Positions 28,228-47,674 of a stretch of DNA of 64,000 nt are shown one piece after another. The notes under the pieces were generated by a model. The model was not told where the DNA came from. It saw only the letters and a program-made list of their open reading frames with translations, and searched no databases. The stretch is taken from NCBI RefSeq assembly GCF_053078305.1, contig NZ_CP166879.1; one strand, 5' to 3'. The position numbers were made by a program, and so were the translations under genes. The stretch's first letter is position 1. Each line of letters begins with the position of its first letter.

Positions 28228-28454
28228 GCGACCTTATTATCCATGCGCGGTATTGTCGCCGTATTCCTGCATTAACAGAGACCGCAGCCCGACAGGGAGA
28301 CTCCTCTGCGCGAGTGTGCGGGGATAATCAAAAACGATACACACCGGGGTTTACCGCGTTAACGGAGCGCGGCGTTGTCCCCTCATGGTCGCTGGTCCGG
28401 TGCGATGGTGGAAGAAACTGGATTTTGTTGCAACTGATAATCATTATCATTTTC

Positions 28455-28530
28455 TCGGGTCCTTTCCGGCATATGGACCCGTTACGGGGCGGCGACCTCG
28501 CGGATTTTCACTATTTATGAAAATTTTCCG
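28455..28530 (+). other. Lambdoid cos site (cosN GGGCGGCGACCT at 28487-28498 plus flanks)
   Basis: ACGGGGCGGCGACCTCGCGG..TTTATGAAAATTTTCC matches lambda cos; CCGGACATG repeats downstream. Confidence 0.65.
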
Positions 28531-28681
28531 GGATCCATGTCCGGTTTCTCTGCAAGTTAACCATATGAAAAATATAAAAACATGCTTTCCATGAACCGGA
28601 CATGCGCAAAAAATAGACACTAAAACCGGACATGACCGGTTTTGTTGTGATTGTGAGGTGAGAGTTTTTGCGAGGTGAGGA

Positions 28682-29191
28682 GTGGCTACGCAGACTGAAG
28701 TTGCCAGGCATTTAAGTCTGACCGATCGCCAGCTTCGCAGATTGCAGAAATTGCCGGGTGCCCCGATATCGAATAAGCGAGGGCAACTGGATCTGGATGC
28801 CTGGCGCGATTTTTACATATCGTATCTGAGAAGAAGTAAAAACGATGTGCCTGATGGCGATAGCGAAGACGACTATGAGGAGAAATTGCTTATTGCCAGA
28901 TGGGAACTGACAGCAGAACAGGCTGTTACACAGCAGTTAAAAAATGAGGTGTCAAAAGGAAAACTTATTGACACCGGGTTCTGTATTTTTGCCCTCAGCA
29001 AGCTGGCAATGGCGTTATCCAGTACGCTTGATTCCATCCCTTTATCCATGCAGCGACAGTTTCCTGATTTAACACCGCGCCATCTTGACCATCTGAAAAC
29101 CCTTATTGCGAAGGGGGCAAATCAGTGTGCGCGGGCGGGGGATAAATTACCGGATTTACTCGATGAATATATCAGAGCAACAACTGAATAA
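28682..29191 (+). CDS. Terminase small subunit (Nu1-like)
   Basis: ...FCIFALSKLAMALSSTLDSIPLSMQRQFPDL... resembles lambda Nu1. Confidence 0.8.
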   Translation: MATQTEVARHLSLTDRQLRRLQKLPGAPISNKRGQLDLDAWRDFYISYLRRSKNDVPDGDSEDDYEEKLLIARWELTAEQAVTQQLKNEVSKGKLIDTGFCIFALSKLAMALSSTLDSIPLSMQRQFPDLTPRHLDHLKTLIAKGANQCARAGDKLPDLLDEYIRATTE

Positions 29192-31091: not shown

Positions 31092-31281
31092 ACTGCAGGC
31101 GCTGCGTCAGGCGCGCCTTGATTTATTAACCGGTAAACGGGTGGTGTCTGTCCAGAAAGATGGTCGCAGAATTGAATATACGGCGGCCTCTCTGGATGAG
31201 CTTAACCGTGCGATCAATGATGCTGAGTTGGTACTGGGGACAACCCGCCGTCGCCGTCGTCCGCTGGGAGTGAGGTTATGA
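31075..31281 (+). CDS. Head-tail joining protein (gpW-like)
   Basis: 68 aa; ...LTGKRVVSVQKDGRRIEYTAASL... Confidence 0.8.
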   Translation: MVTVAELQALRQARLDLLTGKRVVSVQKDGRRIEYTAASLDELNRAINDAELVLGTTRRRRRPLGVRL

Positions 31282-32150
31282 AACGAACGCCTGTCCTGAT
31301 TGATGTGAACGGCGTTCCGCTTCGGGAGAGCCTAAGCTACAACGGGGGCGGCGCAGGATTTGGCGGGCAAATGGCAGAGTGGTTGCCACCCTCGCAGAGT
31401 GCCGATGCGGCCCTGCTGCCCGCGTTGCGTCTGGGGAATGCCCGTGCAGATGATCTGGTGCGCAATAACGGAATAGCGGCCAATGCGGTGGCCCTGCATA
31501 AGGATCACATTGTCGGGCATATGTTTCTGATTAGCTACCGTCCGAACTGGCGCTGGCTGGGGATGCGGGAGACCGCGGCAAAAAGTTTTGTCGATGAGGT
31601 GGAGGCGGCCTGGTCAGAATACGCAGAAGGGATGTTTGGTGAGATCGACGTGGAAGGGAAACGCACGTTTACGGAATTTATCCGTGAAGGTGTGGGCGTT
31701 CATGCGTTTAACGGCGAAATCTTTGTGCAGCCGGTCTGGGATACGGAGAGCACGCAACTGTTTCGTACGCGTTTTAAAGCCGTGAGTCCGAAACGGGTGG
31801 ACACGCCAGGACACGGTATGGGGAACCGTTTTCTGCGGGCCGGTGTGGAGGTCGATCGATATGGTCGTGCCGTTGCGTACCATATCTGTGAGGATGATTT
31901 TCCTCACTCCGGGAGTGGACGATGGGAACGGATCCCGCGTGAACTTCTCACCGGGCGTCCGGCCATGCTGCATATTTTCGAGCCGGTGGAGGACGGGCAG
32001 ACCCGTGGGGCCAATCAGTTTTACAGCGTCATGGAACGGCTGAAGATGCTCGATTCCCTGCAGGCAACACAGCTTCAGTCGGCCATTGTTAAAGCCATTT
32101 ATGTCTATCATCTCCCCGTAGTTGTCCGCATCGTTCGCCAACTCCACTGA
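31278..32150 (+). pseudogene. Portal protein (gpB-like), N-terminal ~275 codons, interrupted near 32102
   Basis: Portal homology stops at ...QSAIVKAIY; the last 16 codons are read-through into inserted DNA. Confidence 0.75.
32091..32103 (+). repeat. Left att core AAAGCCATTTATG
   Basis: Direct repeat of 43930-43942 (one mismatch). Confidence 0.5.
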
Positions 32151-32298: not shown

Positions 32299-33540
32299 AT
32301 GGCTATTGAAAACAAACTCAGTGACAAACTGTTAAAGAGTCTTGTCGGAAAACGGCAGGACAAACAAAAAACAATAGCGGATGGGCGCGGGTTGTCTGTG
32401 CGTGTAAGCATGGTTGGGGGGATCAGCTTTGTTTTTTACTATCGTCTTGGTGGCAGGGAATCCCCTCCGGTATGGCTTACACTTGGGCGCTATCCTGATA
32501 TGTCTCTTGCAACAGCCAGGCGCATGCGTGATCAGTGCCGTGAGTGGCTGGCTGAAAATCTGGACCCCCGCAGGCAAATAAAACTTGCCGCCGAAAAAAC
32601 CATGCAACCAGTGACCGTAAGGGATGCGCTGTTTTACTGGTACGACAATCACGCCACAACAGCCAGAAAAGAGCATGAATATTTAATAAAACGATTTGAA
32701 AAGCATATCTTCCCCTATATCGGTGATATGGCTATAGAACAGTGCAAATTACACACATGGCTTGCCGTCTTTGACAGGATCAAAAAAAATGCGCCTGTTA
32801 TGTCTGGTGCAATTTTTCTTGATATCAAACAGGCGTTGCGTTTTTGTCGCGTCAGGCAATACATCGCGTGCGATCCCTTTGGCGATATTAACGTAAGTTA
32901 TGTCGGGCGCTCATCCGGTATAAGGGATCGCGTTCTTAATATCAATGAAACAGCGGATGTATGGTCTTATGCTTACGGTAATAATTTGCTGACACTGTCA
33001 TCAATACATAACAGAAGAATAATGGTTATCTGCCTGGTGTTTGGTTGCCGTCAGCAGGAGGCGAGGTTATCCACATGGGACGAATGGGATTTAAAAAACT
33101 GGGTATGGACAGTCCCAAAAGAGCACAGCAAAAACAAGGAGGCCATAGTAAGGCCTGTTCCTGACGGCATAAAACAATGGCTCGTTAATCTTTACGCAGA
33201 AACAAAAAATCGCGGTTATGTTGTCGGTTGTGCTTTGCAAAGGGCGACAATAACAGGGGCTGCAAACAGAATATGCAGGCGTCTTGGTCATGATATTAAT
33301 GGCTTGTGGTGCATACATGATTTCAGGCGCACATTTTCCACTGCGCTTAATGATATGGGGGCGGATCCTTATATTGTCGAACTTCTTTTAGGTCATAAAG
33401 TGAAAGGGGTTGCCGGTGTTTACAATAAAAGCAGGCATATAAAGAAAAAACTTGAGGTGCTTAATATGTGGGTTAATTACCTTAATACGATAGCAGGATT
33501 TAACAACAACGTTATCGAGCTTAATAAAGAGGTGGTGTGA
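32299..33540 (+). CDS. int: P4-type tyrosine integrase
   Basis: 413 aa; N-terminal LSDKLLKSL...GRGLSVRV arm-binding domain; C-terminal ...LLGHK...VYNKS. Confidence 0.85.
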   Translation: MAIENKLSDKLLKSLVGKRQDKQKTIADGRGLSVRVSMVGGISFVFYYRLGGRESPPVWLTLGRYPDMSLATARRMRDQCREWLAENLDPRRQIKLAAEKTMQPVTVRDALFYWYDNHATTARKEHEYLIKRFEKHIFPYIGDMAIEQCKLHTWLAVFDRIKKNAPVMSGAIFLDIKQALRFCRVRQYIACDPFGDINVSYVGRSSGIRDRVLNINETADVWSYAYGNNLLTLSSIHNRRIMVICLVFGCRQQEARLSTWDEWDLKNWVWTVPKEHSKNKEAIVRPVPDGIKQWLVNLYAETKNRGYVVGCALQRATITGAANRICRRLGHDINGLWCIHDFRRTFSTALNDMGADPYIVELLLGHKVKGVAGVYNKSRHIKKKLEVLNMWVNYLNTIAGFNNNVIELNKEVV

Positions 33541-33541
33541 T

Positions 33542-33799
33542 ATGGCAATTTATTCTCTTGTTGATGAAAACGATTTGCGCACAATGAAGGACATTGATCG
33601 GTTCATTCGTGAAAAAGAGTGCATAGCACTTACCACGCTGGCAAACTCAACACGCTGGAAAATGGAGCAGGCAGGTAAATTCCCGCGACGTATCAAGATC
33701 GGTGAACGTGCGGCAGGGTATCGACTTTCAGAGGTTCAGGCATGGATCCGTGGTGAGTGGCATCCTGGATGGAAACCTGGAAAAACAAAACAGCAATAA
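33542..33799 (+). CDS. alpA: AlpA-family regulator / excisionase
   Basis: 85 aa; directly after int. Confidence 0.7.
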   Translation: MAIYSLVDENDLRTMKDIDRFIREKECIALTTLANSTRWKMEQAGKFPRRIKIGERAAGYRLSEVQAWIRGEWHPGWKPGKTKQQ

Positions 33800-33853: not shown

Positions 33854-34432
33854 ATGAATAAAAATATTGCCGTGACGGGCAAGGGGTACGCTCGTCCAGT
33901 GAAAAAATTCTGTGATATTCGTGATCTTGTCGTTCTGCGCTTTGATGGTGTGAGCGTTCGCGTGGTGTATGTGAACGGCGATCCGTGGTTTGTTGCCGTT
34001 GACGTGTGCGCTGCGCTGGAAATTGTTGATCACAAGGTTGCGTTACGCCGTCTCGATGATGATGAAAAGGGGGAGTGTTTAATACCCACCCCAGGTGGAA
34101 ATCAAACAATGCGAACGGTATGCGAGTCAGGGTTCTACAAACTAATCGCCAGAAGTCGGAAAGCTGTTACTCCTGGCACGTTCGCCCGTCGTTTCAGTAA
34201 CTGGGTATTCAGAAATGTGATACCAGGTATCAGAAAAACGGGGGCTTATGGTATCCCGTGGGGGGCATTACAGGATTTTTCCCGCCGTAAAGAGCAATAT
34301 CAAATAAGTGCCAGCGAGAAGGGGAGGGAGCTACAGGCATGTAAGCGCAAAAAACGTGAACTGGAGGAAGAAGAAAAAAGGCTGATACGTGAATATCAGC
34401 CTGAGTTTTACTTTGGTGAGCGTATTCAGTAA
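33854..34432 (+). CDS. Bro-N-domain protein (antirepressor-like)
   Basis: ...VVYVNGDPWFVAVDVCAALEI... Bro-N signature. Confidence 0.65.
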   Translation: MNKNIAVTGKGYARPVKKFCDIRDLVVLRFDGVSVRVVYVNGDPWFVAVDVCAALEIVDHKVALRRLDDDEKGECLIPTPGGNQTMRTVCESGFYKLIARSRKAVTPGTFARRFSNWVFRNVIPGIRKTGAYGIPWGALQDFSRRKEQYQISASEKGRELQACKRKKRELEEEEKRLIREYQPEFYFGERIQ

Positions 34433-35683: not shown

Positions 35684-36045
35684 TGAGAAATCATACCACA
35701 CACCCGCAAGGGCGGGACTCGCACAACCTGAATAAATACATCTGGCGTTTTCTGGCCCGAAAAAACCAGTTGATCGCCAGTGTCGAAAATAGCTATGATT
35801 CCCGCGCACCTCATAAAACGGGTGCCGGGATTGGCGTCCTGGGCAAAACTGAAGCGCATAACACGCGCCCCGCGTGTTTTTTTGTGCCGCATAGTCACAC
35901 CTTATCAATGGTGGGCTGTACGGGGGCGGAGCAATCCGCGCCGGTTTCTTCAGTGTCCGGTTACGCCAACCCTGTACAGTCCGCCACCAGCGAAATTGGC
36001 GTTTCCGGTGGCGGTTATCTTAACCACACTGAGGAGGCTGCCAAC
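35684..36045 (+). promoter_or_regulatory. Structured leader with terminator hairpin; homologue of rha leader at 6632-6930
   Basis: Conserved blocks plus hairpin ACACGCGccccGCGTGT followed by U7. Confidence 0.45.
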
Positions 36046-36918: not shown

Positions 36919-37218
36919 ATGAAACTTAAATATCCTGGCTTAACTGCCAGTGGCAACACTCACCCTAAATTTACGCGCGGTGATATTTACCGCGACCAGT
37001 ACGGCGGCACGGTAATGATTAAGGGCGTGGCGGGACGGTGCGTAACTTACCGCCGTGAAGGCTACGAATATGATTGCGTGATGCCTGTTTATCAGTTCCG
37101 GCGTGATTTTTCTCTGGTACAGACCGCGCCGCATAACGTGCCCACCAGCAACGCCAGGGCACGGGCAAACATCCAGAAGCTGAAAACCATGATTAACGGA
37201 TTCAGGGGTAAAAAATGA
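36919..37218 (+). CDS. Hypothetical protein
   Basis: 99 aa, stop overlaps helicase start. Confidence 0.4.
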   Translation: MKLKYPGLTASGNTHPKFTRGDIYRDQYGGTVMIKGVAGRCVTYRREGYEYDCVMPVYQFRRDFSLVQTAPHNVPTSNARARANIQKLKTMINGFRGKK

Positions 37219-38624
37219 AACTGGCACCGAACGTAAAACGATTACCGAAAGATAAATACACCGAAGCGGTTATTTTTGCGGGTATTGATGCTCACTCATT
37301 CGCAGAGCATTACATCATTGCACAGGCCAAAAAAGCAGGCGATCCAGTCCCTCCCGTTTATCTGGGGCGTTATCAGTTAAGCGAACTGGATAACCTCCAG
37401 ATTGTTGATGATGGGCGATACAGGGCGACGGTGATACGCGCCGGAAATATTGAAGAGCCGCAGCTGTTAACCATCGCCACGAAACTGGCGAGCGCCGGAG
37501 TCCAGGAGGCGCGGCTACTTTCTGAAAATTTCGAATTGCTGGAGGAATGGAGCGACCAGCTTCCACGGCTTAGGGAGGCATGGGAACGCGGGGAAAGCCT
37601 GGTCATGAAAAAAATTCCCCAGCGAAAAACCACGCTACCGATGAGCGTTGGATCTACCGGATACGACACACAGCTTGATTACGTGGTAAAGGGGATTATT
37701 CCGGCATCGTCGCTTTGCAGCATATACGGGGCGAGCGGTTCCTATAAATCATTCCTTGCCGGATCGTGGGCGTGTCACGTTTCCACGGGCCGCCAGTGGG
37801 GAGGCCGCAGGGTGGCGCATGGCGCTGTTCTCTATGTGGTTGGTGAAGGCGGTATCGGCGTTCCGCGTCGTGTAAAAGCCTGGGAGGTTGTGCACGGTGA
37901 GCAGGTGAAAAATCTGTATCTGGTAAACCGTCCCATCTTTCCGGCTGTCCCGCTTGATGTTGATGAACTGGTTATTGCTGCCAGTCAGGTGGAGAGGGAA
38001 ACGGGTAAACCTGTTCGCATGATTATTCTGGACACGCTGGCGCGTTGCTTTGGCGGCAATGATGAAAATGACTCCCGCGACATGGGGGCATTTATCCGTG
38101 GTTGTGACGAGCTTAAACGGCGCACAGGGGCTACGGTGCTGGTGGTTCACCATTCCGGCAAGGATGAAACAAAGGGGGCGCGTGGTTCCAGTGCATTTCG
38201 TGCATCACTGGACGCTGAATACCGGATACGCAGGGAGGACGCAGGAAGCGAAGCGCTGGTTATCTCATGCACCAAAATGAAGGACGCGGAGGAACTCAAA
38301 GAGGCTGCCTATGATTTGCGGGTGGTGGAGCTTTTTACCGACGCTGACGGGGAGTTAATTACGTCGCTGGTGGTGGTGGATAAGCCGCGCCCTCCCGTTG
38401 AACTGGAGCGCATCGAGGAGGCAGGCAACAAGACGGAAAACCATACCGCGCTATGGGGGTGCATCCGTTCACGCACACAGAACGGCGACAAGTGCACGAT
38501 CCCGCTGTTACGTGACGATATGAAAAAGCTGGGGTATGACACAAAACACCTTAAACGATGGTTAGCCAAACTGGAAAAAGACGACGTGATCTACATTGAC
38601 GGTGATGATGTAGGACCACTGTAA
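37215..38624 (+). CDS. Replicative ATPase/helicase (RecA/DnaB-like NTPase domain)
   Basis: 469 aa; Walker A GASGSYKS, Walker B ILDTL, ...VVHHSGKDETKGARGSSA... Confidence 0.75.
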   Translation: MKLAPNVKRLPKDKYTEAVIFAGIDAHSFAEHYIIAQAKKAGDPVPPVYLGRYQLSELDNLQIVDDGRYRATVIRAGNIEEPQLLTIATKLASAGVQEARLLSENFELLEEWSDQLPRLREAWERGESLVMKKIPQRKTTLPMSVGSTGYDTQLDYVVKGIIPASSLCSIYGASGSYKSFLAGSWACHVSTGRQWGGRRVAHGAVLYVVGEGGIGVPRRVKAWEVVHGEQVKNLYLVNRPIFPAVPLDVDELVIAASQVERETGKPVRMIILDTLARCFGGNDENDSRDMGAFIRGCDELKRRTGATVLVVHHSGKDETKGARGSSAFRASLDAEYRIRREDAGSEALVISCTKMKDAEELKEAAYDLRVVELFTDADGELITSLVVVDKPRPPVELERIEEAGNKTENHTALWGCIRSRTQNGDKCTIPLLRDDMKKLGYDTKHLKRWLAKLEKDDVIYIDGDDVGPL

Positions 38625-38826
38625 AAAGTGGGCATTAAAAGTGGGAAAGGTGGGCGATTTAACGTAATTTTAACAAAATCACCCACTTTCCCACGTGTAT
38701 ATATCCCAAAAAGTGGGCACTAAAAAAATACCTATGAAACAAGATGATATAAATCCCAAACTTCCCACGTTGGACGAAGTGGGAAAACGTAAAAAGTGGG
38801 CGAAAAAAGTGGGTAGAGGTGGGCGA
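38625..38826 (+). repeat. Iteron array (AAGTGGG-type repeats), putative satellite ori
   Basis: About nine AAGTGGG / CCCACTT copies immediately downstream of helicase gene. Confidence 0.5.
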
Positions 38827-39078
38827 ATGACTCAAAAACACAGAGACAGAACAGAGCCAAAATATAAAGCGTTAGACATGACAGAGCACGCTTTAAAGGT
38901 GGCAATCAGGGTAATAGACCGCCACACGCGGGAAGGATACGCGAAGGAACATCCCGACCTGATAAGCGCATTCATGACCACAGCGGCGGCAAACTTTGCC
39001 ACGCTGACAGAACGGGAGATAGCCGAAGCGGAACAGGTAACAACCATCAACGTTAAAACCGGAGAGGTGGAATCATGA
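38827..39078 (+). CDS. Hypothetical protein
   Basis: 83 aa from MTQKHRDR; upstream part of tracked ORF lies on iterons and is rejected. Confidence 0.35.
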   Translation: MTQKHRDRTEPKYKALDMTEHALKVAIRVIDRHTREGYAKEHPDLISAFMTTAAANFATLTEREIAEAEQVTTINVKTGEVES

Positions 39079-39485
39079 CAGCACAGATAGCCGCTTACGG
39101 GCGGCTGGTGGACGACCCGCAGGTAAAACAAACCAGCAAGGGCACACCGATGACGCTGGCGCGTATGGCGGTATCTCTGCCATGCAGCCAGGCACAGGAC
39201 GGGCAGGCTACGTTATGGCTATCAGTGATGGCATTTGGTAAGCAGGCCGACTTCCTGGCTAAACATCAAAAAGGCGATGTTGCCAGCGTATCCGGCACGA
39301 TGCAGGTAAGCCAGTGGACCAGACAGAACGGGGAAACGCGGCAGGGTTATCAGGTTATTGCAGACAGTGTAATCAGTGCCCGTGCTGCCCGTCCTGGCGG
39401 GAGCAGACGTACAACCACAGGCACACAGGGTAATCAGCCACCAGCGGGAGGCGATGACCCTTACGGTGACGGTATTCCGTTCTGA
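39075..39485 (+). CDS. SSB-like single-strand DNA-binding protein
   Basis: OB-fold-like N-terminus, Gly/Pro-rich tail ending DDPYGDGIPF. Confidence 0.55.
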   Translation: MTAQIAAYGRLVDDPQVKQTSKGTPMTLARMAVSLPCSQAQDGQATLWLSVMAFGKQADFLAKHQKGDVASVSGTMQVSQWTRQNGETRQGYQVIADSVISARAARPGGSRRTTTGTQGNQPPAGGDDPYGDGIPF

Positions 39486-39495: not shown

Positions 39496-39768
39496 ATGGT
39501 ACATGACCGCATAGCGGAGGAACTCGAGGCAAAAGGCTTTTACCGGAGGGCGGCGGCGCGATGGGGTGAAGTTATGCAGCTGGTGGAGACAGACAAGGAA
39601 CGGCATCAGGTTACGATGCGACGGCTGGAATGTTCCAGGAAGGCACAGAGGCCACCGGAGCCGCCGGATAACTTCGGAGACCTGAAAAAAGCAGTAGATC
39701 GCACTTATGCCGAAATGGGTATGGATGGTGTAAGCGATGAAATATGGCGTAATTACCCAGACAGCTAA
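39496..39768 (+). CDS. Hypothetical protein
   Basis: 90 aa, GAGGGGG RBS. Confidence 0.35.
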   Translation: MVHDRIAEELEAKGFYRRAAARWGEVMQLVETDKERHQVTMRRLECSRKAQRPPEPPDNFGDLKKAVDRTYAEMGMDGVSDEIWRNYPDS

Positions 39769-39774
39769 TCAACA

Positions 39775-39846
39775 GCCGGAGAAATCCGGCTTTTTTGTAC
39801 CCAAAAAAAGCCCGATAAGTACAGGAGGCATCTTATCGGGCTTTTG
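39775..39846 (+). terminator. Two tandem intrinsic terminators ending the replication operon
   Basis: GCCGGAGAAATCCGGC+U6 and GCCCGATAAG...CTTATCGGGC+U4. Confidence 0.5.
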
Positions 39847-40007
39847 CATATGAGGTTTTTTTGGTGCACTGACACACATGATCGGGGTAATCATTTCATA
39901 ATTTGCAACACAACTCAACATCATTGCACAAAATGCAATCCTGATTATAATCAGAGCTGGATGAACATCCAGTTCTGATTTTTTAAGTCAAAGAGGAATT
40001 TCTTACT

Positions 40008-40214
40008 ATGGCTGAAGAGAAAAAAGGCGGTGTTTCGGTGTACATAAGCCCCGAAATCGTGGAGGTGCTCAAGCAGCGCCACAAAAAAAACTATGAGGCT
40101 GGCGTAGCGGCTGGACTGGATCCGCTGATGACGCCGGAGCCGTCGATAGGTTCACTTGTGCGCTCTTATTTACTTGCGGCGCTTGGGATGCATAAAAATT
40201 ATGGTGGTGAATAA
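40008..40214 (+). CDS. Hypothetical protein preceding capsid gene
   Basis: 68 aa, AGAGGAA RBS. Confidence 0.4.
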   Translation: MAEEKKGGVSVYISPEIVEVLKQRHKKNYEAGVAAGLDPLMTPEPSIGSLVRSYLLAALGMHKNYGGE

Positions 40215-41269
40215 TGACAGTAAAAGCAATGGCACTTACAACTAACCAGCTTTTCGCGTACCTGAATCGCGGGGATATTGCAGAATTTAAATTCAGTCCG
40301 CTGTTTACCACGCTGTTTTTCCCGAACGTGGCGACCTTCAACACCCAGAACATCATGCTGGACACCCTGGACATTGAAGAGGTTACGATGTCAGCGTTCT
40401 GTTCGCCTATGGTGGGTAGTCAGGTCCAGCGCGATAAAGGGTACGAAACCAGCACGATTAAACCAGGCTACATGAAACCCAAACACGAAATCGATCCAAC
40501 AAAAACCATCATGCGCATGGCTGGAGAAGATCCGGCACAGCTTAACGACCCTACCTACCGCCGTATGCGCCTGATTACTGGCAACATGCGCCGCCAGATA
40601 AACGCCATTAAAGCGCGCGTGGAATGGCTGGCGGTGAATGCGATAACGACCGGAAAAAACATCATTGAGGGCGAAGGCATAGAACGCTATGAAATCGACT
40701 GGAAAATACCGGAAAACTGCATCATAGAGCAGGCCAAGGGTAAAAAATGGTCCGAGCATGATAAAGATATTTACGATCCAATCTATGACATCGAACTATA
40801 CGCAGATCAGGCAGGTTGCCCCGCCAACGTCATGATTATGGGCGCTGAGGTATGGCGCACGTTACGCAGCTTTAAAAAATTCCGCGAACTGTACGATCTT
40901 TCCCGTGGTTCAGAATCCGCCGCAGAACTGGCCTGTAAAAACCTGGGTGAAGTAGTGAGCTTTAAAGGCTATCTGGGCGATATTGCCCTTATCGTCTATT
41001 CCGGCAAATACACTGACAGCGACGGTACCGAAAAATATTTCCTTGAGCCTGATTTGCTGGTCCTGGGTAACACCAACAATAAAGGGCTGGTGGCCTATGG
41101 TGCGATTATGGATCAGGAAGCGGTAAGAACGGGCGCAACGCAAAACATGTTCTACCCGAAAAACTGGATTGAAGACGGCGATCCGGCGATTGAGTACGTT
41201 CAGACGCACAGCGCACCGCAGCCGGTACCGGCAGATATTCGCAAATTTGTTACCGTCAAAATTGCTTAA
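40214..41269 (+). CDS. Major capsid protein paralog (gpE-like) encoded by satellite
   Basis: Shares blocks PGYMKPKHE, GEDPAQLNDP.YRR, VVSFKGY.GD.A.VV, DGTEKY with prophage E at 46646. Confidence 0.8.
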   Translation: MTVKAMALTTNQLFAYLNRGDIAEFKFSPLFTTLFFPNVATFNTQNIMLDTLDIEEVTMSAFCSPMVGSQVQRDKGYETSTIKPGYMKPKHEIDPTKTIMRMAGEDPAQLNDPTYRRMRLITGNMRRQINAIKARVEWLAVNAITTGKNIIEGEGIERYEIDWKIPENCIIEQAKGKKWSEHDKDIYDPIYDIELYADQAGCPANVMIMGAEVWRTLRSFKKFRELYDLSRGSESAAELACKNLGEVVSFKGYLGDIALIVYSGKYTDSDGTEKYFLEPDLLVLGNTNNKGLVAYGAIMDQEAVRTGATQNMFYPKNWIEDGDPAIEYVQTHSAPQPVPADIRKFVTVKIA

Positions 41270-41280
41270 CGGGGGATTCT

Positions 41281-41616
41281 ATGGACACTCCATACATTGA
41301 GTTATTTGCAGGCAGTCAGCAGGTATCCACGACGCTGGTACATTTTGCCGCTGATGCTGGCGTTATTCAGGAATTTACCCCGCTGATGCTGGCGGACAAT
41401 GGCGAGTTTAAGCCGTGGGATGGTCAGGAATCTGGCAAGGCTGTTTATCTGACCTCGTACCCCGTGGACACGTCAAAGCAGAAATCAGCACAGTGTTACA
41501 AGACGGGGATATTTAATATCGCCGCCGTAAACTGGCCTGAGAGCGCCGACACTGACGCGAAAAAATGCGCCGCCTTTGCGGGTTCTGGCGTATCCGTTCA
41601 GCCGCTGGCGCGATAA
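41281..41616 (+). CDS. Head decoration protein paralog (gpD-like)
   Basis: 111 aa; TPLMLADNG..KPWDGQ and YKTGIF motifs shared with prophage D. Confidence 0.7.
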   Translation: MDTPYIELFAGSQQVSTTLVHFAADAGVIQEFTPLMLADNGEFKPWDGQESGKAVYLTSYPVDTSKQKSAQCYKTGIFNIAAVNWPESADTDAKKCAAFAGSGVSVQPLAR

Positions 41617-41628
41617 GCAGGGGAAACG

Positions 41629-42042
41629 ATGGCAACGAATGAAAGCATCATGGCGCTACCGCTGGCGAGTAAATTTAAAGCAGAAGCGCGGGCAATGGCT
41701 GACAGAGGTTTATCAACCTACGAGGCCGTATATCAACTCAACAAACTGGAAGAGCAGGACAAGCCGCGCGCTGATGCGATTATGGCGCTTCATGAACATA
41801 ACGACTATCAGCCGCTGTTACGTGCAATGGCAAACGTGCCATGTATTAGCGTCGATAATGCTCGTGAAATCCTGAACATGACCATAGAGCAGGAGCGCCC
41901 AAAGGTTGCGCCGGAGCTTACCGCAGCCTTTGAAAACTTTATGGACATGCACAGCCCGAAAGCCGTATCACCCGGCATGGCATACGACGGCAGAAACCAG
42001 GGCGATGAAGGCGACGTCGATCGCATACTGAAAACCATCTGA
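41629..42042 (+). CDS. Scaffold-like protein (Nu3-like C-terminus)
   Basis: C-terminus ...AAFENFMDMHSPKAV... parallels prophage C/Nu3 tail ...ALFEHFMANHSPAAV... Confidence 0.5.
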   Translation: MATNESIMALPLASKFKAEARAMADRGLSTYEAVYQLNKLEEQDKPRADAIMALHEHNDYQPLLRAMANVPCISVDNAREILNMTIEQERPKVAPELTAAFENFMDMHSPKAVSPGMAYDGRNQGDEGDVDRILKTI

Positions 42043-42072
42043 CATAAGGCCGGAGAAATCCGGCTTTTTTTA

Positions 42073-42150
42073 CGGGTCCTTTCCGGCATATGGACCCGTT
42101 ACGGGGCGGCGACCTCGCGGTTTTTCGCTATTTATGAGCTTTTTTCGGGT
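42073..42150 (+). other. Satellite cos site (cosN 42104-42115)
   Basis: About 48 bp identical to prophage cos (GGGTCCTTTCCGGCATATGGACCCGTTACGGGGCGGCGACCTCGCGG), then divergent. Confidence 0.65.
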
Positions 42151-42236: not shown

Positions 42237-42791
42237 GTGGGGATATTGATGAAATCGCACCTGATGAACAAAAAAAACATGGCGCAAAGCTGCCGTGTAA
42301 GTGCGACAGCGTTCGACAAGTGGGGAGTGACTCCCGTTGAACGTAAAGGACGCGAGGCTTTTTACGATGTTGCCAGCGTGATAGACAATCGGGTAAGCAA
42401 TGCAATTAACCAGGTTACAAACGACAAAGGCGAGATTGATGATGATGAACTCTTACGAGTCAGGATCAGATTACTGACCGCCCAGGCTGAGGCGCAGGAA
42501 CTTAAAAACGAGCGCGATCGCGGTGACGTAATTGATACTGAGTTTTGCCTGTACGCGCTTTCAAAGCTGGCGAGTCAGATTTCTTCAATCATGGACAGTT
42601 TGCCGCTTACCATGCAAAGGCGCTTCCCGCAGATTACTCCCGCTATGCTGGATGGGCTTAAAAGGGAAGTGGTTAAAGCCTGTAATGCCAGTGCCACAGT
42701 TGCCGACAACCTCCCGAAGATACTGGCTGATTACCTGATGGAAACTACCGGAGACGTACCGGAGAAGTTGCTACAGAAGAAAGGCGAGTAA
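42237..42791 (+). CDS. Terminase small subunit homolog (Nu1-like; possible packaging redirector)
   Basis: ...FCLYALSKLASQISSIMDSLPLTMQRRFPQI... parallels Nu1. Confidence 0.65.
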   Translation: MGILMKSHLMNKKNMAQSCRVSATAFDKWGVTPVERKGREAFYDVASVIDNRVSNAINQVTNDKGEIDDDELLRVRIRLLTAQAEAQELKNERDRGDVIDTEFCLYALSKLASQISSIMDSLPLTMQRRFPQITPAMLDGLKREVVKACNASATVADNLPKILADYLMETTGDVPEKLLQKKGE

Positions 42792-42959
42792 CAGACGCGC
42801 AATTATTGAACAAAAGTAAGGCCCGACATGAAATCACCCAAAAATGCCTTTTTCATGCGTTTGTATGTCTGACCTTTTACGGTTTCGATATTATAAAAAA
42901 CAAATAGTTACGCTCGAGAGGTACCGACACGCATTTTTCAGGAAAATTTTCATAAACAG

Positions 42960-43020
42960 ATAAAAACCGCGAGGTCGCCGCCCCGTAACGGGCCATAATT
43001 CCAGGAAGGACCCGACGACA
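42960..43020 (-). other. Second, inverted cos-like site (cosN complement 42972-42983)
   Basis: Minus strand reads CCCGTTACGGGGCGGCGACCTCGCGG...TTTATGAAAATTTTCC. Confidence 0.5.
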
Positions 43021-43929: not shown

Positions 43930-43942
43930 AAAGCCATGTATG
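43930..43942 (+). repeat. Right att core AAAGCCATGTATG
   Basis: Direct repeat of 32091-32103. Confidence 0.5.
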
Positions 43943-44709
43943 CAGCGACGATTGAAAGTGAACTTGATACCGAAAAGGCCTTTGAATATATCGCCGGTGC
44001 GCCGCAGGGGCAGAAGGATAATCCGCTTATTAATATTCTGGATAAGTTCTCCACCTGGTATGACACGAATATCGTGACGCTGGGCGGTGTCAAAATTCCG
44101 CACCTTTTCCCCGGTGATGATCTGAAACTTCAGACCGCGCAGGATTCAGACAATGGATTTTCGGCGCTTGAACAGGCGCTGCTGCGGTATATCGCCGCCG
44201 GTCTTGGCGTTTCCTACGAACAGTTGTCCCGTGATTACTCGAAGGTCAGTTATTCAAGTGCCCGCGCCTCCGCCAATGAGTCGTGGCGCTATTTTATGGG
44301 ACGACGAAAATTTATTGCAGCCCGGCTGGCCACGCAGATGTTTTCCTGCTGGCTGGAAGAGGCACTTCTTCGGGGGATTATCCGTCCGCCACGGGCACGT
44401 TTTGATTTTTATCAGGCGCGTTCAGCCTGGTCGCGGGCAGAGTGGATTGGCGCAGGAAGAATGGCCATTGACGGGCTCAAGGAGGTCCAGGAATCAGTGA
44501 TGCGCATTGAGGCCGGACTGAGCACGTATGAGAAAGAGCTGGCGCTGATGGGTGAGGATTATCAGGACATTTTCCGCCAGCAGGTCAGGGAATCCGCAGA
44601 GCGGGAAAAAGCCGGACTCTCACGTCCGGTGTGGATAGCGCAGGCGTATCAGCAGCAGATAGCAGAGAGCCGCAGGCCGGAAGAGGAGACAACACCACGT
44701 GAGACGTAA
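43930..44709 (+). pseudogene. Portal protein (gpB-like), C-terminal ~256 codons
   Basis: Resumes at ...AATIESELDTEKAFEYIAGAPQGQ...; the tracked ORF start at 43876 lies in inserted DNA. Confidence 0.75.
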
Positions 44710-46204
44710 TCTTTCACACATTATTGCCGCAGCATTCAATGAACCGCTGCTTCTGGAGCCCGCCTATGCGCGGGTTTTCTTTTGCGCGCTCGGGCGCGAG
44801 ATGGGGGCAGCAAGTCTTTCGTTACCACAACAGCAGGTACAGCTTGATGCTCCCGGGATGCTGGCTGAAACGGACGAGTACATGGCCGGAGGTAAACGAC
44901 CGGCCCGTGTTTACCGGGTGGTGAACGGTATTGCGGTACTGCCGGTGACCGGCACGCTGGTGCACCGGCTGGGTGGTATGCGGCCATTTTCCGGAATGAC
45001 AGGCTATGACGGCATTGTTGCCTGTCTTCAGCAGGCAATGGCGGACACCTCTGTCCGGGGCGTACTGCTGGATATTGACAGTCCGGGCGGGCAGGCCGCC
45101 GGTGCGTTTGACTGCGCTGACATGATTTACCGCCTCCGGCAGCAGAAGCCGGTCTGGGCACTGTGTAATGACACGGCCTGTTCTGCGGCCATGCTGCTGG
45201 CGTCGGCCTGCTCCCGACGGCTGGTTACCCAGACATCCCGTATCGGCTCCATTGGCGTGATGATGGGCCATGTCAGCTATGCCGGTCATCTGGCGCAGGC
45301 CGGAGTGGATATCACGCTGATTTATGCCGGGGCGCATAAGGTGGATGGCAATCAGTTTGAAGCGTTGCCGTCAGAGGTTCGCCAGGACATGCAGCAGCGG
45401 ATTGATGCGGCGCGCCGGATGTTTGCCGAAAAAGTGGCGATGTATACGGGGCTGTCTGTGGAAGCTGTCACGGGGACAGAGGCTGCCGTTTTTGAAGGTC
45501 AGTCCGGTATTGAAGCCGGGCTGGCGGATGAATTAATCAATGCGTCGGATGCCATCAGTGTGATGGCTGCGGCGTTGAACACACATGATACAGGAGGCAC
45601 TATGCCGCAATTAACTGCAACGGAAGCCGCCGCGCAGGAGAACCAGCGAGTGATGGGGATCCTGACGTGTCAGGAAGCGAAAGGACGTGAACAGCTTGCC
45701 ACGATGCTGGCAGGACAACAGGGCATGAGCGTTGAACAGGCCCGGGCGATTCTGGCCGCGGCGGCACCACAGCAGCCGGTGGCATCCGCGCAGAGTGAAG
45801 CCGATCGCATTATGGCGTGTGAAGAAGCTAAAGGTCGTGAACAACTGGCGGCAACGCTGGCGGCGATGCCGGATATGACGGTGGAAAAAGCCCGCCCGAT
45901 CCTGGCGGCTTCACCGCAGGTGGATGCCGGCCCCTCACTCCGTGATCAGATTATGGCTCTGGATGAGGCAAAAGGGGCTGAGGCGCAGGCTGAACAGCTG
46001 GCTGCCTGCCCGGGAATGACAGTGGAGAGCGCCCGGGCTGTGCTGGCTGCGGGATCAGGTAAGGCAGAACCGGTTTCTGCATCAACAACCGCCCTGTTTG
46101 AACATTTCATGGCGAACCATTCACCGGCAGCCGTGCAGGGTGGCGTGTCACAGACGTCGGCAGACGGTGATGCGGACGTGAAAATGCTCATGGCCATGCC
46201 ATGA
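44699..46204 (+). CDS. Head protease/scaffold (gpC with in-frame Nu3-like C-terminus)
   Basis: S49-type peptidase region ...DIDSPGGQAAG...; three ~36-aa tandem repeats near C-terminus. Confidence 0.8.
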   Translation: MRRNLSHIIAAAFNEPLLLEPAYARVFFCALGREMGAASLSLPQQQVQLDAPGMLAETDEYMAGGKRPARVYRVVNGIAVLPVTGTLVHRLGGMRPFSGMTGYDGIVACLQQAMADTSVRGVLLDIDSPGGQAAGAFDCADMIYRLRQQKPVWALCNDTACSAAMLLASACSRRLVTQTSRIGSIGVMMGHVSYAGHLAQAGVDITLIYAGAHKVDGNQFEALPSEVRQDMQQRIDAARRMFAEKVAMYTGLSVEAVTGTEAAVFEGQSGIEAGLADELINASDAISVMAAALNTHDTGGTMPQLTATEAAAQENQRVMGILTCQEAKGREQLATMLAGQQGMSVEQARAILAAAAPQQPVASAQSEADRIMACEEAKGREQLAATLAAMPDMTVEKARPILAASPQVDAGPSLRDQIMALDEAKGAEAQAEQLAACPGMTVESARAVLAAGSGKAEPVSASTTALFEHFMANHSPAAVQGGVSQTSADGDADVKMLMAMP

Positions 46205-46240
46205 AGTCAGTGCTGACCATCAATATGAGGTTTTTACAAT

Positions 46241-46588
46241 ATGGTAACGAAAACCATCACTGAACAACGTGCGGAAGTACGTATTTTTGCCGGTAATGAT
46301 CCGGCTCATACCGCCACAGGCAGCAGCGGGATTTCTCAGGCAACACCGGCACTGACGCCCCTGATGCTGGATGAAGCCAGCGGGAAACTGGTGGTCTGGG
46401 ACGGACAGAAAGCCGGTAATGCGGCTGGCATACTGGTACTGCCGCTTGAAGGCACAGAGACGGTGCTGACGTATTACAAGTCGGGGACCTTTGCGACGGA
46501 GGCAATCCGCTGGCCTGAAAGTGTGGATGAACACAAAAAGGCCAACGCCTTTGTCGGCACAGCCCTGAGTCACGCGGCGCTGCCGTAA
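46241..46588 (+). CDS. Head decoration protein (gpD-like)
   Basis: 115 aa; ...NDPAHTATGS...TPLMLDEASGKLVVWDGQ...YKSGTF... Confidence 0.8.
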   Translation: MVTKTITEQRAEVRIFAGNDPAHTATGSSGISQATPALTPLMLDEASGKLVVWDGQKAGNAAGILVLPLEGTETVLTYYKSGTFATEAIRWPESVDEHKKANAFVGTALSHAALP

Positions 46589-46645
46589 CACGTTATCAGG
46601 CCACCGCGTTGGCCTGACTGATTTCTGAATGAAAGGAACTGATTT

Positions 46646-47674
46646 ATGGGATTGTTTACGACCCGCCAGTTACTCGGTTATACCGAACAAAAAGTGAAAT
46701 TTCGTGCGCTGTTTCTGGAGCTGTTTTTCCGCCGTACGGTGAATTTCCACACCGAAGAGGTGATGCTGGATAAAATTACCGGAAAAACGCCGGTGGCAGC
46801 CTATGTCTCCCCGGTTGTTGAAGGAAAAGTGCTGCGTCATCGTGGTGGTGAAACCCGCGTGTTGCGTCCGGGCTACGTCAAGCCGAAACACGAATTTAAT
46901 TACCAGCAGGCGGTGGAGCGCCTTCCCGGTGAAGATCCGGCGCAACTGAACGACCCGGCCTACCGTCGTCTGCGTATCATCACTGATAACCTCAAACAGG
47001 AAGAGCATGCCATTGTCCAGGTGGAGGAAATGCAGGCGGTGAATGCCGTGCTGTATGGCAAATACACCATGGAAGGGGAGCAGTTTGATACTGTCGAGGT
47101 GGATTTCGGGCGCTCTGAAGGAAATAACATTGAGCAGGCTGACGGTAAAAAATGGTCTGAGCAGGACCGTGATACGTTTGATCCGACGCATGATATTGAC
47201 CTCTACTGCGATCAGGCCAGCGGTCTTGTGAATATCGCCATTATGGACGGTACGGTCTGGCGTCTGCTGAATGGCTTTAAGTTGTTCCGCGAAAAACTGG
47301 ATGCCCGTCGCGGCTCAAATTCACAACTCGAAACAGCAGTGAAAGACCTGGGGTCGGTGGTGTCCTTCAAGGGGTATTACGGCGATCTGGCCATTGTGGT
47401 GGCGAAAACGTCTTATGTGGCAGAGGACGGTACCGAAAAACGTTATCTGCCGGAGGGCACGCTGGTCCTGGGAAATACGTCAGCGGAGGGCATCCGTTGC
47501 TATGGTGCCATTCAGGATGCGCAGGCGTTGTCCGAAGGTGTGGTGGCCTCTTCCCGTTATCCGAAACACTGGATGACCGTGGGCGATCCGGCCCGTGAAT
47601 TCACCATGACGCAGTCCGCGCCGCTGATGGTGCTGCCGGATCCGGATGAGTTTGTGGTGGTACAGGTGAAATAA
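46646..47674 (+). CDS. Major capsid protein (gpE-like)
   Basis: 342 aa collinear with lambda gpE. Confidence 0.9.
   Translation: MGLFTTRQLLGYTEQKVKFRALFLELFFRRTVNFHTEEVMLDKITGKTPVAAYVSPVVEGKVLRHRGGETRVLRPGYVKPKHEFNYQQAVERLPGEDPAQLNDPAYRRLRIITDNLKQEEHAIVQVEEMQAVNAVLYGKYTMEGEQFDTVEVDFGRSEGNNIEQADGKKWSEQDRDTFDPTHDIDLYCDQASGLVNIAIMDGTVWRLLNGFKLFREKLDARRGSNSQLETAVKDLGSVVSFKGYYGDLAIVVAKTSYVAEDGTEKRYLPEGTLVLGNTSAEGIRCYGAIQDAQALSEGVVASSRYPKHWMTVGDPAREFTMTQSAPLMVLPDPDEFVVVQVK

What the first reader, a model, noticed from the sequence alone, without database searches (positions are those of the whole stretch)
40008..42042. Satellite encodes its own paralogs of helper major capsid, decoration and scaffold proteins
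The satellite MCP (40214-41269) and decoration protein (41281-41616) are clearly homologous but divergent copies of prophage E and D, and 41629-42042 resembles the Nu3-like scaffold C-terminus. The satellite has no portal, protease or large terminase of its own. That suggests it builds or remodels capsids with its own shell proteins while taking portal, terminase and tails from a helper, a capsid-redirection strategy different from small external scaffolds.
Basis: partly seen in the sequence, partly recalled or inferred. Interest (0 to 1): 0.7.

Follow-up and report, generated by a model that had tools for sequence, protein, structure and literature searches.

The report
Known PICI satellite capsid-gene module
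A small phage satellite sitting inside the portal gene of a lambda-like prophage carries its own diverged copies of the head shell, decoration and scaffold genes, but this module was already described in a model E. coli satellite, where deleting the shell or the decoration gene changed neither transfer nor phage interference.

Summary
Window 40214-41269, 41281-41616 and 41629-42042 encode homologues of the surrounding prophage's E (47% identity), D (34%) and the C-terminal Nu3-type scaffold region of C (profile match 97%). The 11.8-kb element has no portal, protease or large terminase.

It is not new. The element is a classical Gram-negative cos-type PICI of the EcCICFT073 family. It is helper-embedded at the published site B:Phage_portal_2:241. 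Its MCP and decoration proteins are 96.6% and 97.3% identical to EcCICFT073 c1499 and c1500. The c1499 crystal structure is PDB 3BQW.

Published knockouts of c1499 or c1500 changed neither lambda interference nor island transfer. DNA packaged with lambda was phage-sized. The "own or remodelled capsid" reading is therefore unproven, and size redirection is contradicted for lambda.

What I add:
- The genes are under strong purifying selection (dN/dS 0.03-0.11 for MCP and Dec).
- They belong to a satellite-only E/D clade; no phage record exceeds 47% identity.
- The third gene aligns over nearly its whole length (residues 2-118 of 137) with a Nu3-type scaffold.

My best guess, with low confidence, is that these proteins go into normal-sized heads assembled on helper portal and are redundant with helper proteins in the laboratory.

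The parts
32091..32103 (.). attL core (AAAGCCATTTATG) inside the prophage portal gene
   Evidence: Found by comparing both portal fragments. The flanking sequence matches the published attL of HE-PICI group B:Phage_portal_2:241, entry Eco14761.12.
32299..33540 (+). Satellite tyrosine integrase
   Evidence: phrog_1 integrase, E=1.6e-58; NCBIfam integrase domain.
33542..33799 (+). AlpA-like excisionase/regulator
   Evidence: phrog_2790 excisionase and transcriptional regulator, E=1.9e-15.
33854..34432 (+). Bro-N / anti-repressor-like protein
   Evidence: phrog_2593 anti-repressor, E=1.5e-78.
35806..35991 (+). isrK-like (35806-35882) and C4 antisense-like (35904-35991) RNAs, a P4-type immunity RNA pair
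   Evidence: Rfam RF01394 at 66 bits and RF01695 at 77.6 bits, both above gathering score.
37215..38624 (+). RepA-type helicase/primase (replication)
   Evidence: phrog_2850 E=1e-222; phrog_906 DNA polymerase/primase. The RefSeq orthologue is named 'helicase RepA family protein'.
38621..38813 (.). Iterated AAAAAGTGGGC repeats downstream of rep, a candidate origin
   Evidence: Direct-repeat families D6 and D10. The position matches where PICI origins are described (PMC6092414). Function is inferred.
39075..39485 (+). SSB
   Evidence: phrog_44, E=1e-38; 97% identical to the EcCICFT073 SSB.
39496..39768 (+). PerC-like transcriptional activator
   Evidence: phrog_994 and phrog_10396 'transcriptional activator'. 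83% identical to the CFT073 'PerC family transcriptional regulator'.
39774..39796 (+). Intrinsic-terminator-like hairpin; an identical 22-nt copy lies at 42049-42070
   Evidence: (family D12).
39925..39985 (+). Conserved promoter-like TTGCAC-16 nt-TATAAT followed at once by a 14-bp hairpin and a T run, just before the module's ribosome-binding site
   Evidence: Sequence reading. Conserved in CFT073 and RM14516 with one compensatory stem change. Fold -23.5 kcal/mol, z=-4.3. Function is inferred.
40008..40214 (+). 68-aa protein of unknown function, first gene of the capsid module; its stop overlaps the MCP start
   Evidence: phrog_3255. 68% identical to the CFT073 orthologue. Conserved at this position in four other islands. 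No Pfam, NCBIfam or PDB-fold match.
40214..41269 (+). Satellite major capsid protein, lambda E family (orthologue of EcCICFT073 c1499)
   Evidence: 47% to prophage E. phrog_29 E=1e-107. PDB 3BQW E=2.9e-232 and lambda gpE 7VI9 E=7.7e-82. 96.6% to CFT073. dN/dS 0.07-0.08.
41281..41616 (+). Satellite head decoration protein, lambda D / phage 21 SHP family (orthologue of c1500)
   Evidence: 34% to prophage D. phrog_49. PDB 1TD0 E=6e-13. 97.3% to CFT073. dN/dS 0.03-0.11.
41629..42042 (+). 137-aa Nu3-type scaffold homologue: two 'IMALxEA...' repeats plus the C-terminal tail, with no protease domain
   Evidence: BLASTP to prophage C residues 416-493, E=2e-9. phrog_53 C-terminal end. hhalign 97.2% probability over 115 columns. 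89.8% to the CFT073 orthologue.
42049..42070 (+). Terminator-like hairpin closing the module, identical to 39775-39796
42067..42149 (+). Satellite cos site copying helper cosQ/cosN; cosN GGGCGGCGACCT at 42104-42115
   Evidence: 90% identical to helper 28450-28532. The lambda left end was verified. Sequence.
42249..42791 (+). Satellite small terminase; the C-terminal 115 aa resemble helper TerS and the N-terminal DNA-binding part is different
   Evidence: phrog_57 E=9e-52. 48% to helper TerS over residues 58-171 only. EcCICFT073 has RppA at this position instead.
42941..43015 (-). Second cos-like copy in inverted orientation
   Evidence: 88% to helper cos; sequence. Parallels cos1/cos2 of EcCICFT073 (PMC6739421).
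43048..43329 (+). 93-aa conserved protein of unknown function
   Evidence: phrog_1561; 82% to the CFT073 orthologue.
43930..43942 (.). attR core (AAAGCCATGTATG)
   Evidence: Joining 31278-32090 to 43930-44709 gives an intact 530-aa portal ORF with Pfam Phage_portal_2 over residues 29-397.
28450..29191 (+). Helper cos (28450-28532, cosN 28487-28498) and helper TerS (28682-29191)
29106..32103 (+). Helper TerL, W-like protein and the N-terminal part of portal B
   Evidence: ORFs and translations; lambda gene order.
43930..47674 (+). Helper portal C-terminal part, C protease/Nu3 (44699-46204), D (46241-46588) and E (46646-47674)
   Evidence: 53% to lambda C. 62% to lambda E. SppA/S49 domain. E is 98% identical to that of Escherichia phage PhiR12_2.

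Best explanation
Shown: the region is the conserved late (capsid) module of a classical Gram-negative cos-type PICI of the EcCICFT073 family. Here the island is helper-embedded, integrated in and co-oriented with the portal gene of a lambda-like prophage at the published site B:Phage_portal_2:241. The four genes (68-aa protein, E-type MCP, D-type decoration protein, Nu3-type scaffold) are intact and selectively maintained. They are orthologues of the EcCICFT073 genes that include c1499 and c1500.

Inferred, with low confidence: the three structural proteins are real head components. They assemble, alone or mixed with helper E/D/Nu3, into procapsids of normal lambda size on the helper portal. 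The helper C protease matures these procapsids. Helper TerL fills them with about four satellite units, because the satellite's own TerS (RppA in EcCICFT073) directs TerL to the satellite cos site. The heads then join helper tails. On this reading the module supplies or secures shell capacity rather than changing capsid size. It is redundant with the helper genes in laboratory crosses, which would explain the silent knockouts.
For: Identity:
- Same gene order and gene lengths as EcCICFT073, with 96.6% (MCP), 97.3% (Dec) and 89.8% (scaffold-like) identity.
- PDB 3BQW matches at E=2.9e-232.
- attL matches the published B:Phage_portal_2:241 group.
- In-silico excision restores a 530-aa portal.
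- Integrase, AlpA, Bro-N, C4/isrK RNAs, a primase-helicase, SSB and PerC are present in the published four-zone order.

Functional maintenance:
- dN/dS is 0.07-0.08 (MCP) and 0.03-0.11 (Dec).
- The module is full-length in 589 of 5426 complete E. coli genomes.
- Satellite MCP and Dec form their own group: within-group identity is at least 54% and 45%, against at most 48% and 37% to phage proteins.
- No phage among 50,697 records exceeds 47% identity to the satellite MCP.
- MCP relatives at 68%, 63% and 55% identity all sit in PICI contexts next to a Dec gene.

Structural role (inference):
- A cognate decoration protein and a Nu3-type scaffold would be expected to matter only if the satellite MCP enters assembled, expanded, DNA-filled shells.
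- Helper and satellite use the same E/D/Nu3 families.

Normal size:
- DNA packaged by the near-identical EcCICFT073 with lambda is phage-sized (PMC6092414).
- 4 x 11,839 bp = 47.4 kb, close to lambda's 48,502 bp.

Packaging redirection:
- The satellite carries helper cosQ/cosN but different flanking sequence.
- Its TerS shares only the C-terminal part with helper TerS.
Against: - No experiment shows satellite E, D or the scaffold-like protein in particles.
- Single deletions of c1499 or c1500 had no effect on transfer or on lambda interference. This fits redundancy but equally fits no role in packaging.
- The scaffold-like gene is not universal in the clade. It is absent in the Salmonella island L005 and replaced by an AlpA-domain protein in L008/L009.
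- At 47% identity, co-assembly with helper E is uncertain.
- This particular helper also carries a Mu-like insertion in its Z gene, so this copy may never be mobilised by its host prophage.
Confidence: 0.4

Rival explanations
1. Capsid-size redirection, the first reader's idea and analogous to Ccm. With its natural helper, the satellite MCP, scaffold and decoration protein would force small capsids that hold one satellite genome and exclude the helper genome.
For: A satellite MCP homologue does this in SaPIbov5 (Ccm). PmCI172, a Gram-negative PICI with an MCP homologue, makes small heads. SaPIpT1028 is packaged in large capsids by 80alpha but was later shown to redirect another phage's capsids, so a negative result with one laboratory helper is not decisive. 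By a simple volume estimate (my inference), an 11.8-kb genome is roughly what a T=3 shell scaled from a 48.5-kb T=7 head would hold.
Against: For the 96.6%-identical EcCICFT073 MCP, all DNA packaged with lambda was phage-sized. Deleting c1499 or c1500 did not relieve interference or change transfer by the resident CFT073 prophages. Nothing in the sequence predicts a changed triangulation number.
Confidence: 0.17
2. Interference by poisoning. Satellite MCP, Dec or scaffold would mix into helper procapsids, or the scaffold-like protein would compete with helper C/Nu3 for E. This would lower helper yield as a second layer behind TerS/Rpp.
For: The scaffold-like protein keeps the C-terminal tail shared with helper C/Nu3 but lacks the protease domain. 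It could therefore displace the protease, much as CpmB competes with the phage scaffold. A dominant Rpp effect would mask such a contribution in single knockouts.
Against: A poison would not obviously need a co-evolving cognate decoration protein, which in lambda acts on expanded shells (established knowledge). Very low dN/dS on the whole MCP suggests the entire fold is constrained, not just one interface. No interference phenotype was seen for c1499 or c1500 deletions.
Confidence: 0.15
3. Backup copies for embedded satellites. Because these islands insert in helper genes A, B, C or E, their own E, D and scaffold would compensate for disrupted or polar-affected helper head genes until excision.
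For: Proposed by the authors who described HE-PICIs. Here the insertion lies upstream of helper C, D and E in the same operon. The commonest HE-PICI site is in E itself.
Against: The same module is carried by islands at chromosomal sites far from any helper: EcCICFT073 and RM14516 next to phoQ, plus L005, L006 and L008. The deep satellite-only clade argues against repeated recent capture from helpers. Those authors also note that the redundancy is not essential.
Confidence: 0.1
4. Decaying remnants of captured phage late genes with no present function.
For: Knockouts are silent. PICI late zones are described as dynamic, with capture and loss. The 68-aa gene is frameshifted in RM14516.
Against: dN/dS is 0.03-0.11 for MCP and Dec. 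589 of 597 E. coli genomes that carry the module have at least 80% of it in one aligned place. ORF lengths (351 and 109-113 aa) are conserved down to 55% identity in other lineages.
Confidence: 0.03

Closest known systems
EcCICFT073 capsid module, including c1499 (capsid) and c1500 (decoration) (Fillol-Salom et al. 2018, PMC6092414); c1499 structure PDB 3BQW
   Same: Same four genes in the same order and with the same lengths (68, 351, 111 and 137 aa). Identities are 68%, 96.6%, 97.3% and 89.8%. The upstream control region is also conserved.
   Different: The window element has a Nu1-type TerS where EcCICFT073 has RppA. It uses a RepA-type helicase rather than the D5-type primase. It sits in a prophage portal gene rather than next to phoQ.
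Helper-embedded PICIs, site group B:Phage_portal_2:241 (Tommasini, Mageeney and Williams 2023, PMC10111431)
   Same: Integrated in and co-oriented with the helper portal gene. attL is nearly identical to the published Eco14761.12 sequence. It has the four-zone organisation with capsid genes in the late zone.
   Different: None of substance; it is another member. That paper does not discuss the decoration or scaffold-like genes ('decoration' and 'scaffold' are absent from its main text).
Ccm of SaPIbov5 (satellite-encoded MCP homologue)
   Same: A satellite carries a homologue of its helper's HK97-fold major capsid protein.
   Different: Ccm is required for small capsids and for interference. 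The EcCICFT073 orthologues of the genes here are not, and DNA packaged with lambda is phage-sized. Ccm is not described in the sources read here as coming with a cognate decoration protein and scaffold. The sequences are unrelated.
Capsid-forming PICIs (cf-PICI, EcCIEDL933)
   Same: Same int/alpA/rep backbone type, plus satellite-encoded capsid proteins.
   Different: cf-PICIs encode a complete head and packaging set (MCP, protease, portal, connectors, HNH, TerS, TerL) and take only tails. This element lacks portal, protease, connectors and TerL.
SaPI CpmB (internal scaffold competitor), and P4 Sid and Psu
   Same: Satellite-encoded proteins that act on helper capsid assembly. In its domain content the 137-aa protein is a truncated helper-type scaffold, conceptually close to CpmB. 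P4 Psu is a satellite-encoded decoration protein (my own knowledge, not checked here).
   Different: Those systems use the helper MCP only and change capsid size. Here the satellite also brings its own MCP, and no size change is documented.

Membership tests
Classical Gram-negative PICI (EcCICFT073 type) | Integrase and AlpA at the left end, key genes unidirectional, size about 10-20 kb, bounded by att repeats | tested here: met
   int at 32299-33540 and AlpA-like at 33542-33799. 11,839 bp between att cores.
Classical Gram-negative PICI (EcCICFT073 type) | Own replication module (primase/helicase plus origin) downstream of a Bro/immunity zone | tested here: met
   RepA-type helicase/primase, iterons at 38621-38813, Bro-N protein, C4/isrK RNAs. 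Origin function is inferred.
Classical Gram-negative PICI (EcCICFT073 type) | No lysis, tail, portal or large-terminase genes; packaging redirected through Rpp or TerS plus a cos site with helper cosN | tested here: met
   ORF scans. TerS with a helper-like C-terminus. Two cos copies carrying GGGCGGCGACCT.
Classical Gram-negative PICI (EcCICFT073 type) | Helper-dependent induction, packaging and high-frequency transfer | not testable with these tools
   Shown experimentally only for EcCICFT073.
[quoted passage not shown] | [quoted passage not shown] | tested here: met
   attL matches Eco14761.12. The restored portal ORF is 530 aa with Phage_portal_2 over residues 29-397. The same junction occurs in other E. 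coli genomes.
Capsid-forming PICI (cf-PICI) | Encodes all proteins needed for capsid formation and packaging (MCP, protease, portal, head-tail connectors, TerS, TerL/HNH) | tested here: not met
   Only MCP, Dec, a scaffold-like protein and TerS are present. Definition.
Ccm-type capsid size redirection | Satellite MCP homologue required for satellite-sized capsids and for interference | not testable with these tools
   The MCP homologue is present. For the 96.6%-identical c1499 the published result is negative with lambda. Other helpers are untested.
Lambda E / D / Nu3 protein families | Sequence membership in Phage_cap_E, in HDPD, and in the repeat-plus-tail region of C/Nu3 | tested here: met
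   MCP: phrog_29, PDB 7VI9 and 3BQW. Dec: phrog_49, PDB 1TD0. Scaffold: hhalign 97.2%, though no Pfam model matches and there is no direct hit to lambda Nu3.

The most novel reading that the evidence does not exclude
The E-type MCP, its co-evolving D-type decoration protein and the compact Nu3-type scaffold form a working shell kit. On this reading, classical cos PICIs of this family build the shell of their transducing heads from satellite proteins around a stolen portal, protease, terminase motor and tail. That would be a half-way state between all-helper capsids (SaPI, P4) and fully self-made capsids (cf-PICIs). It would be hidden so far by redundancy with helper E and D in lambda crosses.
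Probability: 0.3. Interest if true: 0.55.

Novelty: already known. Interest (0 to 1): 0.25.

Why it matters
In 2018, Gram-negative PICIs were reported to carry a capsid gene and a decoration gene, and no function has been assigned to them in the papers I could read. The published single knockouts are silent. That sits oddly with the strong purifying selection and the deep satellite-only clade found here. If these proteins do form the shell of satellite particles, satellites would span a continuum from stealing whole capsids to building their own. Engineered PICI delivery vehicles based on EcCICFT073 would then contain satellite-encoded shell proteins. As it stands, this window adds one more member of two published classes and no new kind of system.

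Tried and rejected
- Pfam and NCBIfam gave no match for the 137-aa or the 68-aa protein.
- The PDB sequence search gave nothing for the 137-aa protein.
- tblastn of the 137-aa protein against 50,697 phage records gave nothing. BLASTP against lambda Nu3 was not significant. The scaffold assignment therefore rests on the resident prophage's C protein, PHROG 53 and hhalign.
- The full HMMER search of 1.84 billion representatives found only 8 relatives of the 137-aa protein. No deep alignment could be built, so I ran no further search on it.
- RefSeq's label 'phage head-tail connector protein' for this gene found no support in any scan. I treat it as a probable mis-annotation.
- AlphaFold2 of the 68-aa protein gave two helices at pLDDT 73 and no PDB fold match. 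A ribbon-helix-helix guess remains unsupported.
- I looked for nucleotide similarity between the module's upstream region and the helper, hoping for a shared late promoter or Q-binding site. Only the cos copies and weak similarity between the satellite and helper capsid (E) genes appeared.
- A first tree-building script timed out. I replaced it with an identity matrix with column resampling.
- Literature searches found no later paper that assigns a function to these genes.
Full report
**1. What is there**

The window holds the head-gene operon of a lambda-like prophage on the + strand:
- cos at 28450-28532
- TerS at 28682-29191
- TerL at 29106-31091
- a W-like gene at 31075-31281
- the portal, C protease/Nu3 (44699-46204), D (46241-46588), E (46646-47674) and FI

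The portal reading frame breaks at about codon 271 and resumes at 43930. The two fragments share the core AAAGCCAT(T/G)TATG, at 32091-32103 and 43930-43942. Joining them in silico gives an uninterrupted 530-aa protein, and Pfam Phage_portal_2 covers residues 29-397.

The intervening 11,839 bp is therefore an integrated element. Its genes, all co-oriented with the operon, are:
- integrase, an AlpA-like protein and a Bro-N/anti-repressor-like protein
- a C4/isrK RNA pair
- DUF4222, a RepA-type helicase/primase followed by iterons, SSB and a PerC-like regulator
- the region of the finding
- a small terminase flanked by two cos copies
- a 93-aa protein

It has no portal, protease, large terminase, tail or lysis gene.

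**2.

- The 351-aa protein (40214-41269) is 47% identical to prophage E (E=1e-110).
- The 111-aa protein (41281-41616) is 34% identical to prophage D (E=5e-16).
- The 137-aa protein (41629-42042) matches residues 416-493 of prophage C (35%, E=2e-9).

PHROGs assigns the three to major head protein, head decoration, and the extreme C-terminus of the head-maturation-protease family.

I looked harder at the third gene because it has no Pfam, NCBIfam or PDB match and no significant pairwise match to lambda Nu3. An alignment of its relatives was compared with an alignment of Nu3-type regions (prophage C residues 300-501, a stand-alone 195-aa Nu3-like protein, and lambda Nu3). The result was 97.2% probability, E=3.9e-11, over 115 columns. 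Nearly the whole 137-aa protein aligns: two 'IMALxEA...' repeats plus the tail 'FExFMxxHSP...'. The prophage C protein has three such repeats and lambda C has one. So the gene is a compact Nu3-type scaffold without the protease domain.

RefSeq's name for it, 'phage head-tail connector protein', has no support in my scans.

A fourth gene belongs to the module. The 68-aa ORF at 40008-40214 has a stop that overlaps the MCP start, and it is conserved at that position in other islands. Its function remains unknown.

**3. It is a published kind of element**

*The capsid module.* E. coli CFT073 carries the same arrangement: 68-, 351-, 111- and 137-aa genes, then RppA, then a 93-aa gene. Identities to the window proteins are 68%, 96.6%, 97.3% and 89.8% for the four module genes, and 82% for the 93-aa protein. 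This is EcCICFT073, the model Gram-negative PICI. Fillol-Salom et al. 2018 named c1499 'a putative capsid protein' and c1500 'a head decoration protein' (PMC6092414). The crystal structure 3BQW, 'putative capsid protein of prophage', matches the window MCP at E=2.9e-232.

*The nested configuration.* Tommasini, Mageeney and Williams 2023 defined helper-embedded PICIs at 14 sites in lambda-type late genes (PMC10111431). Their supplementary attL alignment for group B:Phage_portal_2:241 contains a sequence (Eco14761.12) nearly identical to window 32040-32200, with the same AAAGCCAT block. They state that a major capsid gene is present in 21 of 29 reference Gram-negative PICIs and is not required for transfer.

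*Prevalence.* The same junction occurs in other complete E. coli genomes. The four-gene module is present in 597 of 5426 complete E. coli genomes, and 589 of them hold at least 80% of it in one aligned place.

**4. What the published experiments say about the interpretation**

- With lambda as helper, all DNA packaged from an EcCICFT073 lysogen was phage-sized. The authors took this to rule out capsid size redirection.
- Deleting c1499 or c1500 did not restore lambda plaques.
- The same deletions did not change transfer by the resident CFT073 prophages.
- Interference and packaging specificity were later explained by RppA (c1503), which binds helper TerS and retargets it to the PICI cosB (PMC6739421).

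I found no later paper that assigns a function to the capsid genes. At 96-97% identity these results carry over to the window genes. One caveat applies: only lambda and the CFT073 prophages were tested. SaPIpT1028 shows that an island packaged in large capsids by one helper can redirect another helper's capsids.

**5. What I can add**

*(a) The genes are maintained by selection.* Against CFT073 and RM14516, dN/dS is 0.07-0.08 for MCP, 0.03-0.11 for Dec and 0.23-0.33 for the scaffold-like gene, with dS of 0.08-0.26.

*(b) They are not recent captures.*
- None of 410 matching phage records out of 50,697 exceeds 47% identity to the satellite MCP.
- MCP relatives at 83%, 68%, 63% and 55% identity all lie in PICI contexts. 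The order is int, AlpA, DUF4222, primase/helicase, SSB, [68-aa gene], MCP, Dec, a variable third gene, TerS or Rpp, and a ~93-aa gene. The hosts are E. coli, Salmonella and one unassigned read-set assembly.
- In an identity matrix, satellite MCPs are at least 54% identical to each other and at most 48% to phage E proteins. Satellite Decs are at least 45% identical to each other and at most 37% to phage D proteins. These gaps held in 190 and 173 of 200 column resamples.
- MCP and Dec therefore travel and diverge together as a satellite lineage.

*(c) The scaffold-like gene is less constant.* A 141-aa homologue is present in the 63% lineage. It is 31% identical to the 137-aa protein and also matches prophage C residues 371-500. 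No such gene is present in the Salmonella island. An AlpA-domain protein replaces it in the 55% lineage.

*(d) The gene order is reversed.* The satellite order E-D-scaffold is the reverse of the phage order scaffold-D-E, on the same strand.

*(e) The module looks like a separate transcription unit.*
- An identical 22-nt terminator hairpin precedes and follows it, at 39775-39796 and 42049-42070.
- Just before its ribosome-binding site lies a conserved TTGCAC-16-TATAAT element followed by a 14-bp hairpin and a T run (39925-39985).
- That hairpin keeps its pairing through a compensatory change in CFT073.
- Whether it is a regulated terminator or an operator is unknown.

*(f) Packaging.*
- The satellite carries two copies of helper cosQ/cosN, at 42067-42149 and, inverted, at 42941-43015. 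Both contain lambda's GGGCGGCGACCT.
- Its TerS shares only its C-terminal 115 residues with helper TerS, at 48% identity. This fits retargeting of helper TerL to a satellite-specific cosB. That is an inference, by analogy with Rpp.

**6. Most likely mechanism**

The identity of the element is secure. Its function is not.

A cognate decoration protein and a scaffold would be expected to matter only if the MCP enters assembled, expanded shells. The published phage-sized DNA and the arithmetic point to normal-sized heads: 4 x 11.84 kb = 47.4 kb against 48.5 kb for lambda.

I therefore favour, at about 0.4, that these are working shell proteins. They would be used in full-size heads built on helper portal and protease, filled by helper TerL and joined to helper tails. 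They would be redundant with helper E, D and Nu3 in the crosses done so far.

The rivals are:
- size redirection with an untested natural helper (0.17)
- assembly poisoning hidden behind Rpp or TerS (0.15)
- backup for helper genes disrupted by embedded insertion (0.10), which is weakened because chromosomal islands carry the same module
- relics (0.03), which the selection data contradict

**7. Verdict**

The novelty class is already known. The small new points are the whole-length Nu3-type assignment of the third gene, the satellite-only E/D clade under strong constraint, and the bracketed transcription-unit anatomy.

Noticed in passing
window 48940-53300 and beyond: A Mu-like transposable prophage is inserted in the helper's tail-completion gene Z. 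It has a repressor at 49246-49764 on the minus strand, a MuA-type transposase at 50184-52292 and a MuB-type protein at 52364-53296. The Z ORF ends at 160 aa, matching only positions 13-161 of the 199-position family profile. The helper therefore carries two nested elements and may be tail-defective.
   Followed up: partly
window 39775-39796 and 42049-42070: Two perfectly identical 22-nt terminator-like hairpins (GCCGGAGAAATCCGGCTTTTTT) lie 2274 bp apart. They bracket exactly the four-gene capsid module, as if it were an insulated or cassette-like unit.
   Followed up: partly
window 39925-39985: A conserved promoter-like element (TTGCAC-16-TATAAT) is followed immediately by a 14-bp hairpin plus T6, ahead of the module's first gene. 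The stem keeps its pairing through a G-C to T-A change in CFT073. It could be a promoter-proximal regulated terminator or an operator.
   Followed up: partly
window 42237-42791; L002 7660-8094: At the same position different islands carry either a Nu1-type TerS (here, RM14516, L005, L006, L008) or an Rpp protein (CFT073, L004, L007). The TerS here shares only its C-terminal part with helper TerS.
   Followed up: partly
window 42067-42149 and 42941-43015: Two copies of the helper cosQ/cosN region lie in inverted orientation on either side of the satellite TerS gene. This parallels cos1/cos2 of EcCICFT073.
   Followed up: partly
window 35806-35991: isrK-like and C4 antisense-like RNAs score above Rfam gathering thresholds. 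This is the P4-type immunity RNA pair noted for some PICIs.
   Followed up: no
window 32227-32282 and 43835-43859: A repeated TGTGTATTGCAA motif sits next to both att ends, with three copies upstream of int and a doubled copy near attR. These may be integrase arm-type sites, the 'doubled DNA motif' mentioned for HE-PICIs.
   Followed up: no
window 40214-42042 compared with 44699-47674: The satellite gene order MCP-Dec-scaffold is the reverse of the phage order scaffold-Dec-MCP on the same strand, so a simple block capture or inversion does not explain it.
   Followed up: no
L009 1-13100: A related island (MCP 55% identical) is embedded in the E gene of its helper, with a 91-aa E fragment before int and a 254-aa fragment after the island. 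It carries its own intact E and D, as in the published 11capE type.
   Followed up: no
window 38621-38813: Three to four iterated AAAAAGTGGGC repeats lie directly downstream of the helicase/primase gene, a likely satellite replication origin.
   Followed up: no
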